DNA of 47,439 nt. It comes from a virus. Numbering within the stretch: the first letter of the stretch is position 1; each line of letters starts with the position of its first letter. The translations under genes were made by a program, and so were the position numbers. The notes under the pieces are model-generated. The model was given only the letters and a program-made list of their open reading frames with translations. It did not search any database and was not told where the DNA came from. Positions 3,057 to 26,021 of this stretch are shown piece after piece. The DNA lies in the UHGV virus genome UHGV-0203852, one strand, 5' to 3'.

Positions 3057-3248
3057 ATGAAGTACAGTGAGTTTATCTCTGAACTTAAATCTGCGGGATG
3101 CAGATTTGTTAGGAATGGAGGGAACCACGACATTTGGTATTCTCCAATCACATGTAAGAAATTCTCTGTTCCCCGTCACACCTCAAAAGAGGTTGATAGT
3201 GGTCTGGAGAGATTGATGCGGAAACAGACTGGTGTGAAAAAGAAATAA
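3057..3248 (+). CDS. hicA: HicA family toxin (mRNA interferase)
   Basis: 63 aa, G.RFVRNGGNHDIW...VPRH motif of HicA. Confidence 0.9.
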   Translation: MKYSEFISELKSAGCRFVRNGGNHDIWYSPITCKKFSVPRHTSKEVDSGLERLMRKQTGVKKK

Positions 3249-3336
3249 CACAGTCTTGGTCAAGTTTATGGGTAGGGGCTTAAATGTGCCTACCCTTTTT
3301 AAAATTTAGAAATCAAACTAATTAATACAAACTAAA

Positions 3337-3744
3337 ATGAAAAAAAAGACTGTCGCCAACATTGTTGTAGAAATCTCAAAAGATGGTTTCTACTCGTGCT
3401 ATTGCACTGATGAGTTTGAGCATTTCGCTTTGTTTGGCTATGGTGATAGCGCAAAGGAGGCAAAAAAGGACTTGGTTGCCTCATATCACGAAATAAAGGA
3501 AATGCTTGAAGATGAGGGAAAGGAAGTTCCTGAACTTGATTTTGTTTGGCATTACGACATGAAGTCATTCTTTAACTACTTTGATTTTTTGAATGTAAGT
3601 AAAGTCGCAGAACGAGCAGGAATAAATCCGTCATTAATGCGCAGATATGCCTCTGGAATTTCAAACGCAAGCGAACAGCAATACGAGAAGTTAGAACAGG
3701 CTGTAAAGGAGTTTTCAAGAGAACTTGTTGAAGCAGAATTTTAG
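3337..3744 (+). CDS. hicB: HicB family antitoxin with C-terminal HTH
   Basis: GYGDSAKEAK motif and C-terminal NVSKVAERAGINPSLMRRY HTH; directly downstream of hicA. Confidence 0.88.
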   Translation: MKKKTVANIVVEISKDGFYSCYCTDEFEHFALFGYGDSAKEAKKDLVASYHEIKEMLEDEGKEVPELDFVWHYDMKSFFNYFDFLNVSKVAERAGINPSLMRRYASGISNASEQQYEKLEQAVKEFSRELVEAEF

Positions 3745-6858: not shown

Positions 6859-6939
6859 TATCTTTGCATCAACTAATGCGTTTTTTAAAACCGTTACGTT
6901 TTTGTTTTTGCATCTAACCGTGAGGTTGGGTGCTTTTTT
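6859..6939 (+). ncRNA. Candidate small RNA (promoter -7 box to terminator, no ORF)
   Basis: TATCTTTG at 6859-6866, about 40 nt U-rich body, terminator gcatctaacc-gtga-ggttgggtgc-T6 at 6910-6939. Confidence 0.45.
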
Positions 6940-6967
6940 ATTAAAACTTGTTAAAAAATAGTAGAAA

Positions 6968-7011
6968 TGTTACAAAATACTTGCACACTTTAAATAAAGG
7001 TTGTATATTTG
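6968..7011 (+). promoter_or_regulatory. Bacteroides-type promoter of the putative anti-CRISPR operon
   Basis: tgttacaaaatacttgcaca box containing the -33 TTG, TATATTTG at 7004-7011, short palindrome cttta-aa-taaag (6988-6999) in the spacer. Confidence 0.75.
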
Positions 7012-7053
7012 TACCAACAAAAACAAAAACGAACAATTTAAAAATAAACAATT

Positions 7054-7470
7054 ATGGATAATTACATTTATTTAGTTGTGGAAACAGAAAAACAAGAGTA
7101 TCAAGAGGCAAAACCCGGACGAAACCTATTTTTTGACTTTGAAGATGGAGACCACTATTATTTTTCTTCCGCAAAAAATGTGGTGAGATTTATTTACGGC
7201 ATGGCGAAATGCCATGACTATATACGCACAAACGAGACCAACCCAGCCTATGAATTTTGTCAAACTTATGGCGAAAAATATCCATCCGAGCAACTTCTTC
7301 GCGGGTTAGAGGAGGATGGTGGCAACTATTGGTTCACCGTTCAGAGGAATTACGACCCATCAAAGGATGAGGAATTCCCCCTTGCTTCTTTTTTCTCCGA
7401 TGCAATAAAAGAAACAAGATATTACCACATATTGAAGATAAGGTTAGACGAGGTGGTTGAAGATATGTAG
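7054..7470 (+). CDS. Acidic hypothetical protein, anti-CRISPR/anti-defence candidate
   Basis: 138 aa, rich in Asp/Glu and aromatics; first gene of an operon that includes a Cas11-like and an HTH gene; function inferred from context only. Confidence 0.6.
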   Translation: MDNYIYLVVETEKQEYQEAKPGRNLFFDFEDGDHYYFSSAKNVVRFIYGMAKCHDYIRTNETNPAYEFCQTYGEKYPSEQLLRGLEEDGGNYWFTVQRNYDPSKDEEFPLASFFSDAIKETRYYHILKIRLDEVVEDM

Positions 7471-7513
7471 GTTTAATTCACAAAAAAAATAAACTAATTA
7501 AAACAGAAACAAT

Positions 7514-7837
7514 ATGGATAATCAGAAGCAAGAAATTGGATTTACAACAGGGAAACTCGCATACTTGTTGCAAAAAGTCCATGAAATCAACGGCGGCAAA
7601 TACAGGTTTAATTTGTCAATCGCAGCGCAATACCCATTAAACACTCTCATCAAGAGTCTTGCAGGTGTTTTCCGCTGCGAAATAAAGAGGGATTTGTGGG
7701 AGCCTGAACTCTCGAATATCATGAACGATTTACCAACGGACGGACTTCCCGAACACTTGAATTTGAAAGGTCAGGAAAAATTTATGCTTGGCTACTACTC
7801 CGAGGAAAAGACACTTGACGATATACTTGCAGATTAA
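7514..7837 (+). CDS. Cas11c / Cas8c(Csd1) C-terminal domain-like protein, candidate anti-CRISPR
   Basis: GFTTGKLAYLLQKVHE...AAQYP...ELSNIMNDL..GLPEHLNLKGQEKFMLGYY resembles the Csd1 C-terminal pattern Y..GRLFAVLE..Q...A...P...I.EI...L...FP..L....QG.F.LGYY as I recall it; no other cas gene or array seen. Confidence 0.7.
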   Translation: MDNQKQEIGFTTGKLAYLLQKVHEINGGKYRFNLSIAAQYPLNTLIKSLAGVFRCEIKRDLWEPELSNIMNDLPTDGLPEHLNLKGQEKFMLGYYSEEKTLDDILAD

Positions 7838-7842
7838 AAATT

Positions 7843-8079
7843 ATGGAGAAATTATCAAACAGGAAATATGAAATGAACCTAAATCAAGAAATACGAAAAC
7901 GGCGAATCGCAAAGGGTATAAGCATTCGCCGTTTGGCGGAACTTACTGGGTTAAGTTCTACCACCATCGTCAACTTTGAGAACGGCAGCGGAGCGAGAAT
8001 GGAAAAGGTAATGGCGATGATTGATGCGCTTGGTTGCAAAGTCGTAATAATTGATAAAAAACCTAAAATATTTGAATAA
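7843..8079 (+). CDS. XRE-family HTH regulator (Aca-like position)
   Basis: IRKRRIAKGISIRRLAELTGLSSTTIVNFENG is a classic HTH_3; directly downstream of the two acr candidates. Confidence 0.85.
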   Translation: MEKLSNRKYEMNLNQEIRKRRIAKGISIRRLAELTGLSSTTIVNFENGSGARMEKVMAMIDALGCKVVIIDKKPKIFE

Positions 8080-8080
8080 T

Positions 8081-8650
8081 ATGGCTAAATCACTTTTATT
8101 ATTAATGGCTTTGATGCCATTAATTTGCTTCGGGCAAATTAACTTCAAACTGAACGGAAACGGCTGTTTTGAGGCGCAAGATGGTAAAGATTACATTGTC
8201 GTTAACTGCAAGGGCAAAACAGCACACGAGTTGTATGACATCGTGCGCATCAATGTCGGGAAAACATTTAATAGTCCGAAAACGGTTATGAGCGTTGTTG
8301 AAGATAAATCAATCGCAATTCTCGCAATTACCGAAAATTTTATCGCCGAAAGCACTTTTCTTGCCACGGAAAATTATAAGTGCGATTTCAACCTACAATT
8401 TGATTTTAAAGATGGAAAAATAAAAGTTGGCGCACCAGCACTTGGCGAACTAAAATGGTTTAAAAGTGCAATAGACCTCTTGAAATATGGCAACGAAAAT
8501 TCAGCAGCAGTCATAATTTCCAAAAAGTTTTTCGATAAAAAAGGAAAGCCAAAAAAGAAAAAAATAAAAGACATTGAGAAAATCGAGGCATGTTTCAACG
8601 CATTGCTAAATGCACTGGTCGCCATTCCAACTGCAAACGATGATTGGTAA
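8081..8650 (+). CDS. Secreted/periplasmic protein (DUF4468-like)
   Basis: Signal peptide MAKSLLLLMALMPLICFGQ; GKTAHELY...FDFKDGKIKV pattern. Confidence 0.6.
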   Translation: MAKSLLLLMALMPLICFGQINFKLNGNGCFEAQDGKDYIVVNCKGKTAHELYDIVRINVGKTFNSPKTVMSVVEDKSIAILAITENFIAESTFLATENYKCDFNLQFDFKDGKIKVGAPALGELKWFKSAIDLLKYGNENSAAVIISKKFFDKKGKPKKKKIKDIEKIEACFNALLNALVAIPTANDDW

Positions 8651-8655
8651 TACGA

Positions 8656-9927
8656 TTAAATTATAACATTTTCGCCGTCGGGTTTTTGCGCTAATACAGC
8701 GTCAATCACTCGGCGGTTTGCTTTGTCCACCTTGTCGAGTGACGCATCTATATATATAGCCGTTGTGGCGTTGCCGTAGGAATGACCGAGGGCGTGCGCT
8801 ATCGTGTCGATAGGTATATCAATGCGTGATGCCAGCGTAGCCCAAGAGTGGCGAGCCCAATACATTGTCAGGTGCGGAAATATCGGCTTATATATTCGAG
8901 CGTTATATGCTTCGATATGATATGTGCCAATCATTTGCAATAATTCGTTAATTCGATGCGTTGCGTCTTTATGGCTTCGCCAGCGTTGGCGCAAACAAAG
9001 CAATGTGTCGCCATCACCTCTCCATTTGCCTATTATTTCCATTGCTTCGGGAGGTATTGCTATATCGTAGAGTTTTCCAGTTTTGGCACGGCGATAAACG
9101 AGGCGACCGTTTACGATATTTGCCTGTGTTAAATTGTACATATCTACCATGTTAATGCCAAGAAGGTAGAACGACAACTTGAACATGTCAAGAGCTATTA
9201 TAGTGCGTTCATCAGTCGGTGCATTCCACAGTGTACGCAACTCGTCGAGCGTGAGGCTTCGCTTCGTGGTTGGCTCACTTTTGATTTTAAACTTGCGAAA
9301 CGGATAGTTAGTTGTTACATCATTATCTATTGCGTCGTTGAAGATTGCTCGTAAGTTGCGAAAATGTATGCTTCGTGTGTTGATAGCGTTGCCGTTCGCC
9401 TCCAACCACGCATCAAAGCGAGATAGCCAATGAGCATTAATATCATCGAATGTTATTTTGTTTGCCTCAACTTCGCCAAGAAATGCGCACACACGGCTTA
9501 AAGTATGCTGGTATGTATCTTTGGTGCTTTGCTTGCGCTTCGTGGCGCACAGGCGATTTCCGTAAAAAATAACGCAATTCTGCTGTGCTGTATCGTCATT
9601 TATTGCCAATGCTGGGGATAGTCGCTCTTGCACGTAATCTCTAATTTGCTTCACGCTCATTTTGCGTGTAGCCACTTCCGATGATTGCAACTGCATAATT
9701 ATGTTCTCGGCTTCGATTAATTTACGCTTGATGTATGCGTTGTATTGGCGTGCGTTCGGGCTGTCGATAATATGGTTGCCGTCTACGCTCACTTTACGCC
9801 ATTGCTTTTTCTGCACCCTAATTCCGAGTGGAATGTATGCCGCTTCGCCACGATGACGAAGCGAAATTTTCAGCGGATATTTGCCGTCCGCTCCCGATTG
9901 CGACGAAATGTAGATTGACACCTTCAT
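8656..9927 (-). CDS. int: Tyrosine integrase (Bacteroidota type with arm-binding and SAM-like domains)
   Basis: YRRAKT, YWARHSWAT, ALGHS...TAIY catalytic motifs; adjacent to attP. Confidence 0.95.
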   Translation of the reverse strand: MKVSIYISSQSGADGKYPLKISLRHRGEAAYIPLGIRVQKKQWRKVSVDGNHIIDSPNARQYNAYIKRKLIEAENIIMQLQSSEVATRKMSVKQIRDYVQERLSPALAINDDTAQQNCVIFYGNRLCATKRKQSTKDTYQHTLSRVCAFLGEVEANKITFDDINAHWLSRFDAWLEANGNAINTRSIHFRNLRAIFNDAIDNDVTTNYPFRKFKIKSEPTTKRSLTLDELRTLWNAPTDERTIIALDMFKLSFYLLGINMVDMYNLTQANIVNGRLVYRRAKTGKLYDIAIPPEAMEIIGKWRGDGDTLLCLRQRWRSHKDATHRINELLQMIGTYHIEAYNARIYKPIFPHLTMYWARHSWATLASRIDIPIDTIAHALGHSYGNATTAIYIDASLDKVDKANRRVIDAVLAQKPDGENVII

Positions 9928-9940
9928 GCTATTTCATTTT

Positions 9941-10202
9941 TAACTTTTTTGTAACTATTTTGCCAAGATTTTCCACGTTTTGCCGAATTTTTCCACCGTA
10001 TTATATAGCATAGATATAATGCCAATAACGGCGAAAAAAGGTCTTAAAGCCTAATTTCGCCGTTATATTGTGGTGTCGGGGTACCCGGACTCGAACTGGG
10101 GACCCCCTGCTCCCAAAGCAGGTGCGTATGACATATAACCATACTGATACACAGCGAATTATAAAACGTAATATTTCTTCTTTAACTTTTTCTTAACTTT
10201 TT
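9941..10202. other. attP region with paired arm-type repeats
   Basis: TAACT(T/A)TTT at 9941 and 9952, and again at 10183 and 10194 (11-bp spacing in both pairs), flanking the tRNA-derived core; hairpin ataacggcgaaa/tttcgccgttat at about 10025-10065. Confidence 0.7.
10075..10126 (-). other. attP core: 3' half of tRNA-Pro(TGG)
   Basis: Minus strand cgcacctgct-ttggg-agcagggggtccccagttcgagtccgggtaccccgac gives an anticodon arm with TGG, a T-loop GTTCGA and the acceptor 3' strand; 5' half absent. Confidence 0.88.
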
Positions 10203-21248: not shown

Positions 21249-21620
21249 ATGGAGAATTTGATTATACGCTCATTTACAACTAAATGGGAAGACCGTGACT
21301 ATACTACATATATTTTAGAAAAAGGTATGGAAGGCATTGCAACATGTATTGTTAATTATTATGGTGATAAAAAGAAACAAGCCTACTTGTGGAATTTGCA
21401 AGTCAAAGAAGAATATAGGAAGTGTGGTATTGCACACCGGTTGATAGATGTGGTGTGCCACTATGCAAAGATTCGTGGCTGTAAGGAAATCTCACTTGAA
21501 TGGGAAGCCAAAGAAAGTGATGGGTGGGTACTTGATTGGTATAAACGACTTGGATTTAAGGCTGATTTCGAAGAAAAAGACACCCCATTTTCAATAACAC
21601 TTGTAAAAAAATTAAAATAA
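21249..21620 (+). CDS. GNAT acetyltransferase
   Basis: LQVKEEYRKCGIA (motif A) and WYKRLGF (motif B). Confidence 0.85.
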   Translation: MENLIIRSFTTKWEDRDYTTYILEKGMEGIATCIVNYYGDKKKQAYLWNLQVKEEYRKCGIAHRLIDVVCHYAKIRGCKEISLEWEAKESDGWVLDWYKRLGFKADFEEKDTPFSITLVKKLK

Positions 21621-24701: not shown

Positions 24702-24758
24702 AAATGAGTATTTTTGTTCGCAAAATGGGTATTTTTGTTCGCAAAATGGGTAAATTTG
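24701..24758 (+). repeat. 21-bp tandem repeat (2.5 copies) ending at a promoter -7 box
   Basis: aaaatg(a/g)gtatttttgttcgc twice plus aaaatgggta, then TAAATTTG at 24751-24758. Confidence 0.8.
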
Positions 24759-24764
24759 AGCGAT

Positions 24765-26021
24765 ATGAAGCAGGAAATAAACAATAGCAGAATGTTGCCA
24801 ATGTCACAGATTACCGTGAACAATGGGCAGATGGAAGGCGTGCGTGCTAACCCACGCCAAATTAAAGGCGAAAAGTTCGACAGACTGAAAGCGAGCATCG
24901 AACGCAACCCCGAAATGCTGGCATTGCGTGAATTGCTGGTGTACGAACACGGTGGCAAATACATCGTTATCGGCGGTAATATGCGTTATCGTGCATGCAA
25001 GGAATTAGGCTACACGCAAATGCCGTGTAAAATCATTCCGCCACAGGCGACAGCCGAACAACTGAACGCATACATCATACTCGACAACAGTGGCTTCGGC
25101 GACTGGGATTGGGACGCATTAGCCAACGAATGGGATAGCCAGCAGTTGACCGATTGGGGCGTTGATGTGCCGAACTGGGACGAGGAGGCGAGCGAAGAAG
25201 AACAACCGAGAGAAGATGACGATTTCGACGAGGAAAAAGACTCGATAGAATGCAGAGTGAAGAAAGGCGAAATTTGGCAACTCGGAAAGCATCGGCTAAT
25301 GTGTGGAGATAGTTCAAGTCAAGAAGATGTAAAAAAACTTATGGACGGCGAACTTGCCGATATGGTGTTCACAGACCCACCGTATGGTGTAGCGATAGGG
25401 GATAAAAACAAAGCACTCAACAGCGTCCAGCCTTCTGGACGCTGTACGCAAAACATTGAGAACGACACATTGTCGGCTGATGAACTTTACCCATTGCTTG
25501 TTTCTGCAATGACTAATTGCAGAGAGAATTGCAAAGATGGTGCGATATATTTTGTTACATCTCCGCAAGTTGGTGATTTGATGATGATGATGATGATGAT
25601 GATGAAAGATGCAGGGCTCCCCGTCAGACACATGTTGATATGGGAAAAGAACTCTGCAACATTCTCGCTCGGTCGACTCGATTATGACTACCAGCATGAA
25701 CCTATTTTCTACACGTGGACAAAAAAGCATAAAAACCACAGGAAAGGAGAGTTTAGGACGACGATTTGGAAATATGACAAGCCTCGGAAGTGCGATTTAC
25801 ACCCGACGATGAAGCCTGTTGCTCTCGTTGAGAATTGCCTTAAAGATGGCACAATTAAAGGCGACATTGTGTTAGATGTATTTGGCGGAAGTGGCACAAC
25901 GATAATAGCGTGTGAACGACAAGATCGGTGTGCAAGATTAATGGAGATAGACCCACACTATTGCGATGTTATAATTGCAAGATGGGAGACAATGACAGGA
26001 GGAGTTGCAAGTAAAATATAA
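24765..26021 (+). CDS. ParB-like domain fused to DNA methyltransferase (N6/N4, beta class)
   Basis: NPRQI...IGGNMRYRAC ParB-like N-terminus; DPPY, HPTMKP, DVFGGSGTT motifs. Confidence 0.92.
   Translation: MKQEINNSRMLPMSQITVNNGQMEGVRANPRQIKGEKFDRLKASIERNPEMLALRELLVYEHGGKYIVIGGNMRYRACKELGYTQMPCKIIPPQATAEQLNAYIILDNSGFGDWDWDALANEWDSQQLTDWGVDVPNWDEEASEEEQPREDDDFDEEKDSIECRVKKGEIWQLGKHRLMCGDSSSQEDVKKLMDGELADMVFTDPPYGVAIGDKNKALNSVQPSGRCTQNIENDTLSADELYPLLVSAMTNCRENCKDGAIYFVTSPQVGDLMMMMMMMMKDAGLPVRHMLIWEKNSATFSLGRLDYDYQHEPIFYTWTKKHKNHRKGEFRTTIWKYDKPRKCDLHPTMKPVALVENCLKDGTIKGDIVLDVFGGSGTTIIACERQDRCARLMEIDPHYCDVIIARWETMTGGVASKI

What the first reader, a model, noticed from the sequence alone, without database searches (positions are those of the whole stretch)
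6968..8079. acr-acr-aca-like operon next to the integrase
Seen: a consensus Bacteroides promoter with a short spacer palindrome (cttta-aa-taaag), then an acidic 138-aa orphan, the Cas11-like gene and a 78-aa XRE HTH, all co-oriented. Established: anti-CRISPR loci typically have a strong promoter, small acr genes and a terminal HTH aca repressor that binds promoter palindromes. Inference: 7054..7470 is a second, unrecognised anti-defence protein, and 7843..8079 is an Aca that could be used as bait to find more Bacteroidota acr genes.
Basis: partly seen in the sequence, partly recalled or inferred. Interest (0 to 1): 0.8.

Follow-up and report, generated by a model that had tools for sequence, protein, structure and literature searches.

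The report
Swappable phage cassette with Cas11 decoy
This temperate phage carries a gene slot whose contents differ between related phages while its promoter and small DNA-binding gene stay the same; here the slot holds a stand-alone relative of a CRISPR subunit that lacks its DNA-gripping residues and likely jams the host's CRISPR complex, next to a fast-evolving protein that may be a second anti-defence factor.

Summary
The Cas11-like protein has the Cas11c fold, is under purifying selection and belongs to a divergent 11-sequence clade lacking the residues that hold the non-target DNA strand; 3 of the 11 are fused to an XRE HTH. Best reading: an acr-aca-like operon with an AcrIB4-style decoy aimed at type I-C Cascade (about 0.6). 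Corrections: the 138-aa gene is no orphan (208 homologous clusters, mosaic, no known fold); the HTH likely starts at 7873 (68 aa); the cttta-aa-taaag palindrome is chance-level and absent from 3 of 3 relatives, which carry another inverted repeat on the same axis. No function of the 138-aa protein, no HTH binding, no expression timing and no host were shown.

The parts
6859..6939 (+). Conserved upstream unit: TAnnTTTG box, two hairpins, T-run terminator (hairpin 6910-6933); likely insulates the cassette promoter, possibly a small RNA
   Evidence: near-invariant in 4 of 4 phages; folding z -3.7 to -4.4 in 4 of 4; no Rfam family over it
6968..7016 (+). Cassette promoter region: -33 TTG 6981-6983, -7 TATATTTG 7004-7011; flanking imperfect inverted repeat 6968-6976 / 7008-7016
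   Evidence: conserved in L001, L002, L003
6984..7003 (.).
   Evidence: the window site alone is not above chance (21 matches vs 20.3 expected)
7054..7470 (+). ORF1, 138-aa acidic alpha/beta protein of a large, mosaic family; window copy stops just before the C-terminal Trp that most homologues keep; candidate anti-defence protein
7514..7837 (+). Stand-alone Cas11c (Cas8c C-terminal domain) homologue lacking the non-target-strand-binding aromatic and lysines; candidate type I-C anti-CRISPR decoy
7843..7872 (+). Likely deletion scar of a 299-aa cassette gene seen intact in L002; gives an in-frame upstream ATG for the HTH
   Evidence: contig loose ends at 7058 and 7871 in run X2 match that gene's two ends
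7873..8079 (+). 68-aa XRE/Cro HTH, constant partner of the variable slot; candidate Aca-like autorepressor
8081..8650 (+). DUF4468 protein with a hydrophobic N-terminus (signal-peptide-like, by inspection); follows the HTH in 4 of 4 phages, likely same transcript
8656..9927 (-). Tyrosine integrase, convergent with the cassette
10075..10154 (-). tRNA-Pro-like stretch, likely attP; integration here would put the cassette at a prophage end (inferred)

Best explanation
The region is a swappable gene slot between a conserved promoter and a conserved small HTH gene, and it likely works as an autoregulated anti-defence operon in which the stand-alone Cas11 homologue would be built into host type I-C Cascade as a faulty subunit that cannot hold the displaced DNA strand. 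Shown: the slot is variable while promoter, HTH and DUF4468 are constant; 7514-7837 is a Cas11c homologue outside any cas operon; its clade has lost the residues that bind the non-target strand in the D. vulgaris structure.
For: Variable slot: four different contents in 4 of 4 phages that share promoter and HTH, alternatives also acidic (pI 4.37 and 4.10); contigs in laid runs break at the same two borders. Cas11c identity; model pLDDT 92, the 15 top Foldseek rows are all type I-C Cas8c/Cas11c, TMq 0.66-0.75, none at E<=0.001 (31 of 42 alignment rows were ordinary Cas11c-type sequences, so the fold is partly inherited from them). Decoy signature: positions equivalent to D. vulgaris F605/K607/K608 kept in 0, 1 and 3 of 11 clade members against 48, 45 and 43 of 52 other sequences; net charge median -1 against +3; clade support 0.978. 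dN/dS 0.13 for the Cas11-like gene. Cas11-like-HTH fusions in 3 of 11, one in a provirus record with no Cas7 match. ORF1 linked to the Cas11-like gene in L001, on 9 further contigs by coincidence of contig length and through a 3' remnant of it in runs X10/X13. ORF1 dN/dS 0.52 against 0.04-0.17 for six neighbour comparisons of four other genes and the Cas11-like gene, with linkage decaying inside the gene. Precedent: AcrIB4; Aca1/Aca2 and HTH-fused Acrs.
Against: No characterised Acr, Aca or anti-restriction protein matches ORF1, the HTH or the alternative slot genes. The proposed operator is degenerate in the window itself although its HTH is intact, and a similar promoter pattern occurs in an unrelated phage, L009, with no match to this HTH in the 6.8 kb read, so it may be extended promoter consensus. 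The HTH is always coupled to DUF4468 (4 of 4) and could serve that gene. The Cas11-like gene is dispensable: absent in 2 of 4 slot-bearing phages, nonsense-truncated in L001 (61-aa allele on 4 contigs), reduced to a remnant in runs X10/X13. ORF1's higher dN/dS is from one pair, below 1, and fits relaxed selection too. The 11-member clade holds 4 near-identical sequences and long branches; the genomic context of the 52 comparison sequences was read for only one. No host, so no host type I-C system or self-targeting spacer, was identified.
Confidence: 0.6

Rival explanations
1. The slot is a general lysogenic-conversion (moron) site at the prophage end. The HTH controls the exported DUF4468 protein (for example superinfection exclusion), and the upstream genes are passengers of mixed function; only the Cas11-like gene may be anti-CRISPR.
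For: HTH and DUF4468 are coupled by a 1-nt gap in 4 of 4 phages; position next to integrase and attP; HicAB-type genes nearby; the whole module is replaced by another integrase in L006 and L007.
Against: All slot genes read are small or acidic and lack a signal-peptide-like start; the Cas11-like domain is itself fused to an XRE HTH in 3 of 11 clade members; no separate promoter of the TTG-N19-21-TAnnTTTG form lies between 7011 and the HTH.
Confidence: 0.2
2. The operon is a generic early host-takeover unit and the Cas11-like protein has been repurposed for something other than Cascade; ORF1 is one of the many small alpha/beta phage proteins without an immune target.
For: ORF1's nearest predicted folds are uncharacterised small viral proteins (best E 5.7e-3, TMq 0.40; DUF7336-like clusters at 0.78); the same promoter type heads an unrelated small-gene cluster in L009; the Cas11-like clade also lacks the IxDRY motif (0 of 11 against 49 of 52), which might mean loss of Cascade contacts.
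Against: The helical core and the GxL and QxxFxxGYY motifs are kept under purifying selection while the strand-binding tail is lost, the pattern expected of a decoy; AcrIB4 is a tested precedent.
Confidence: 0.13
3. The phage Cas11 supports rather than blocks host Cascade (prophage-supplied subunit), or is a decaying relic.
For: Nonsense allele in L001 and deletion remnant in runs X10/X13.
Against: Loss of strand-binding residues argues against a working subunit; dN/dS 0.13 and 21 full-length alleles at 86-95% identity argue against a relic.
Confidence: 0.05

Closest known systems
AcrIB4 (Listeria; bioRxiv 10.1101/2023.06.24.545427; mechanism proposed in 10.1101/2025.06.06.658234)
   Same: Stand-alone homologue of the Cas8 C-terminal / Cas11 domain outside a CRISPR locus; proposed to poison Cascade by replacing Cas11.
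   Different: AcrIB4 derives from Cas8b, inhibits type I-B and its orphan homologues are limited to Listeria; this protein matches only Cas8c/Cas11c, sits in a Bacteroidetes-type phage, is untested, and has relatives fused to a C-terminal XRE HTH.
acr-aca operons (Aca1, Aca2; PMC8633003) and HTH-fused Acrs (AcrIIA1, AcrIIA13-15)
   Same: Promoter with an inverted repeat, small variable genes, then a conserved small HTH; Acr-HTH fusions exist.
   Different: No sequence match of this HTH to a solved Aca; a DUF4468 gene follows it; the fused forms here carry the HTH at the C-terminus, whereas the cited fusion Acrs carry it at the N-terminus; repression untested.
Cas11c of type I-C Cascade (D. vulgaris 7KHA/8DEJ, N. 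lactamica 8G9S)
   Same: Fold and core motifs.
   Different: Own gene with its own start, no cas8c around it, acidic, lacks F117/K119/K120 (Cas8c F605/K607/K608) and the IxDRY motif.
Orphan viral cas genes in putative anti-defence loci (358 genes in IMG/VR, bioRxiv 10.1101/2023.06.24.545427, section 8)
   Same: Orphan cas homologue in a phage; Bacteroidota phages were abundant in that survey.
   Different: Its Table S3 was not visible to me, so this clade may or may not be listed; no type I-C Cas11 decoy is described in the text read ('I-C' and 'Cas11' have 0 occurrences).

Membership tests
Aca (anti-CRISPR-associated repressor) | Small HTH protein | tested here: met
   HTH_3 E 2.7e-10, 68 aa
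Aca (anti-CRISPR-associated repressor) | Conserved while the small genes upstream vary | tested here: met
   four different slot contents in 4 of 4 phages, HTH 94-96% identical; further variants at 7864-7871
Aca (anti-CRISPR-associated repressor) | Encoded in an operon with a validated acr gene | tested here: inconclusive
   only a candidate (Cas11-like); no characterised Acr matched
Aca (anti-CRISPR-associated repressor) | Conserved inverted repeat over the promoter | tested here: inconclusive
Aca (anti-CRISPR-associated repressor) | Sequence relationship to a described Aca family | tested here: inconclusive
   no Aca among 24 PDB matches at E<=1; no library of all Aca families was on hand
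Aca (anti-CRISPR-associated repressor) | Binds the operator and represses the promoter | not testable with these tools
   needs EMSA or reporter
AcrIB4 family | Stand-alone homologue of the Cas8 C-terminal/Cas11 domain outside a cas locus | tested here: met
AcrIB4 family | Homology to Cas8b (type I-B), Listeria-limited | tested here: not met
   all HMM, PDB and fold matches are to Cas8c/Cas11c; only named relative is Parabacteroides provencensis
AcrIB4 family | Inhibits Cascade upstream of target binding | not testable with these tools
Cas11c (working type I-C small subunit) | Cas11c helical fold | tested here: met
   (alignment included ordinary Cas11c rows)
Cas11c (working type I-C small subunit) | Translated from inside cas8c in a cas operon | tested here: not met
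   own 107-codon gene; one Cas11 profile match in the whole window
Cas11c (working type I-C small subunit) | Non-target-strand-binding aromatic and lysines (Cas8c F605, K607, K608) | tested here: not met
   D102, I104, L105 in the window by ungapped mapping from the GYY motif; 0/1/3 of 11 in the clade against 48/45/43 of 52
HipBA-type toxin-antitoxin | HipA-like kinase next to the HipB-like HTH | tested here: not met
   TIGR03070 38.7 bits, below its 71.65 cut-off; neighbours are Cas11-like and DUF4468
Known Acr or anti-restriction families (for ORF1) | Sequence or fold match to a characterised anti-defence protein | tested here: inconclusive

The most novel reading that the evidence does not exclude
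A Bacteroidales clade of phage Cas11c decoys, stripped of their DNA-strand-binding tail and sometimes fused to their own repressor, is a subunit-poisoning inhibitor of type I-C Cascade not described in the papers searched; its HTH marks a new Aca family whose slot delivers at least three more unrelated anti-defence families (ORF1 with over 200 diverging clusters, a 299-aa and a 114-aa acidic protein), ORF1 being under ongoing arms-race diversification.
Probability: 0.3. Interest if true: 0.8.

Novelty: new variant of a known kind. Interest (0 to 1): 0.6.

Why it matters
Few anti-CRISPRs are recognisable in Bacteroidetes phages (passage in PMC8008677). This locus gives a conserved HTH bait with a proven variable slot, a short list of testable candidates, and a structure-based prediction for how a Cas11 decoy would disable type I-C Cascade, a system used for genome editing. 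It would extend Cas11 subunit poisoning, so far proposed for AcrIB4 in type I-B, to another subtype and phylum.

Full report
Setting. The window is a temperate phage genome with holin, amidase, RecT/YqaJ, portal and a tyrosine integrase at 8656-9927 (-) beside a tRNA-Pro-like stretch at 10075-10154. No host genome is held. A Bacteroidales host is inferred from the promoter type and from the one named relative of the Cas11-like protein, Parabacteroides provencensis; it is not shown.

Observation. TTG (6981-6983), a 20-nt spacer and TATATTTG (7004-7011) fit the Bacteroidetes -33/-7 consensus (one passage of PMC7366714); it is 1 of 9 such matches in the window. A DUF4468 gene starts 1 nt after the HTH stop and a hairpin+T-run scan of 6860-8700 found only the terminator at 6910-6939 upstream of the promoter, so the unit likely has four genes.

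The palindrome. cttta-aa-taaag is present, but 18% of shuffles of the 32-nt promoter and 11% of shuffles of the spacer hold a perfect 5-bp-arm palindrome, and the window has 236 of them. In the three relatives with the same promoter it is broken although the HTH is 94-96% identical with an invariant recognition helix. On the same axis L002 and L003 pair 5 of 5 in CACAC-N10-GTGTG, L001 4 of 5, the window only in part. That repeat is the better operator candidate but is not proven: in the window it is at chance level (21 matches against 20.3 expected), and 1 of the 3 viral matches of the promoter pattern is an unrelated phage without this HTH in the DNA read.

The slot is variable. One metagenome locus and four viral records from HTH and upstream-gene queries (a fifth, L008, is a 44% relative with other neighbours) give the comparison. 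Four phages share promoter, HTH and DUF4468: the window has ORF1 plus Cas11-like; L001 has an extra gene with an early stop, ORF1 and a Cas11-like gene cut by TGA at codon 62; L002 has one 299-aa protein (pI 4.37); L003 one 114-aa protein (pI 4.10). L006 and L007 lack the module and carry a different integrase. The alternative genes belong to clusters of 432 and 121 members, the HTH to one of 240, and none has a family match at E<=0.001 except a weak uncharacterised PHROG for the L001 fragment. In 8 laid runs, contigs leave the window at 7024-7058 and rejoin at 7864-7871 with several different neighbours. Window 7843-7872 resembles the first and last letters of the L002 gene, so it is likely a deletion scar, and the HTH likely starts at 7873; 13 of 15 listed cluster members are 68 aa.

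The Cas11-like gene. It matches the last 40 positions of Cas8c profiles below their cut-offs, N. lactamica Cas11 over residues 1-100 and Cas_Csd1 clusters in the Atlas at 0.88 (a lead only). The model (pLDDT 92) retrieves only type I-C Cas8c/Cas11c in its 15 top rows, TMq 0.66-0.75, best E 2.2e-3; 31 of 42 alignment rows were ordinary Cas11c-type sequences, so this is not independent of the sequence match. Close homologues are few (3 clusters, 24 members); the full search added 5 relatives at 25-38% and a profile search 59 proteins in all. Eleven sequences form one clade (FastTree 0.978) apart from 52 others. Section 6 of bioRxiv 10.1101/2022.06.15.496202 names F605, K607 and K608 of D. vulgaris Cas8c as conserved contacts of the non-target strand; numbering places them 9, 11 and 12 residues after the G of GYY. 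They are kept in 0, 1 and 3 of the 11 against 48, 45 and 43 of the 52, and net charge is -1 against +3 (medians). Caveats: 4 of the 11 are near-identical, branches are long, mapping is ungapped, and the context of only 1 of the 52 (L012) was read. dN/dS against L001 is 0.13. Three of the 11 carry a C-terminal XRE HTH; P0191 lies at the first base of a provirus record without a Cas7 match, so its upstream DNA was not seen. The precedent is AcrIB4, a Cas8b C-terminal homologue that blocks type I-B target binding (passages and section 8 of bioRxiv 10.1101/2023.06.24.545427) and is proposed to replace Cas11 (passages of 10.1101/2025.06.06.658234). That Cas11c lines the non-target-strand groove was also read in passages of 10.1101/2023.08.05.552134. 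Against: the gene is lost, truncated or reduced to a remnant in several relatives.

Mechanism and odds. Shown: variable slot, constant promoter and HTH, Cas11c homology with loss of strand-binding residues, HTH fusions. Inferred: strong unrepressed expression on entry, incorporation of the decoy into Cascade, autorepression by the HTH as for Aca1/Aca2 (passages of PMC8633003), anti-defence roles for the other slot genes. Overall about 0.6; the moron reading with an HTH-DUF4468 module 0.2; non-immune early genes 0.13; helper or relic 0.05.

Novelty. Six literature searches listed no paper whose title or abstract start describes a phage type I-C Cas11 decoy, an Aca in Bacteroidota phages or DUF4468 in this setting; only listings were seen for most, the library lacks most subscription papers, and the supplement listing 358 orphan viral cas genes could not be seen. 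Passages of PMC8008677 state that predicted Acrs are scarce in Bacteroidetes phages. I file this as a new variant of a known kind: it works like acr-aca with an AcrIB4-like gene, but is not a member of the AcrIB4 family and is not yet shown to be an Aca.

Noticed in passing
window 6859-6939: A TAnnTTTG box, two hairpins and a terminator, near-invariant in 4 of 4 phages, no Rfam match: possible small RNA or insulator upstream of the cassette.
   Followed up: partly
L001 5662-5907, 6405-6423, 6635-6637: All three slot genes of L001 look damaged (two in-frame TGA stops, one shortened end), and the window's ORF1 also ends early; slot genes may be costly and often switched off by mutation.
   Followed up: partly
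L002 4108-5007; L003 4663-5007: Two further acidic slot proteins (299 and 114 aa) of large unannotated clusters (432 and 121 members): independent anti-defence candidates.
   Followed up: partly
L014 1-525 (G005): Cas11-like domain fused to an XRE HTH in a Parabacteroides provencensis provirus record; two more such fusions (P0239, P0240).
   Followed up: partly
L012 435-5106 (MT836291.1): A record filed as bacteriophage holds cas8c-cas7c-cas4-cas1-cas2, likely a bacterial type I-C operon fragment.
   Followed up: partly
window 3057-3744: HicA toxin gene followed by a likely HicB antitoxin, with its own Bacteroidetes-type promoter at 2978.
   Followed up: no
L009 3501-6700: An unrelated phage has the same promoter pattern, a second copy of it and a run of small genes and short direct repeats in an AT-rich early region.
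   Followed up: no
window 24714-26021 and 21249-21620: An N6/N4 DNA methylase and a GNAT acetyltransferase, possible further counter-defence genes.
   Followed up: no
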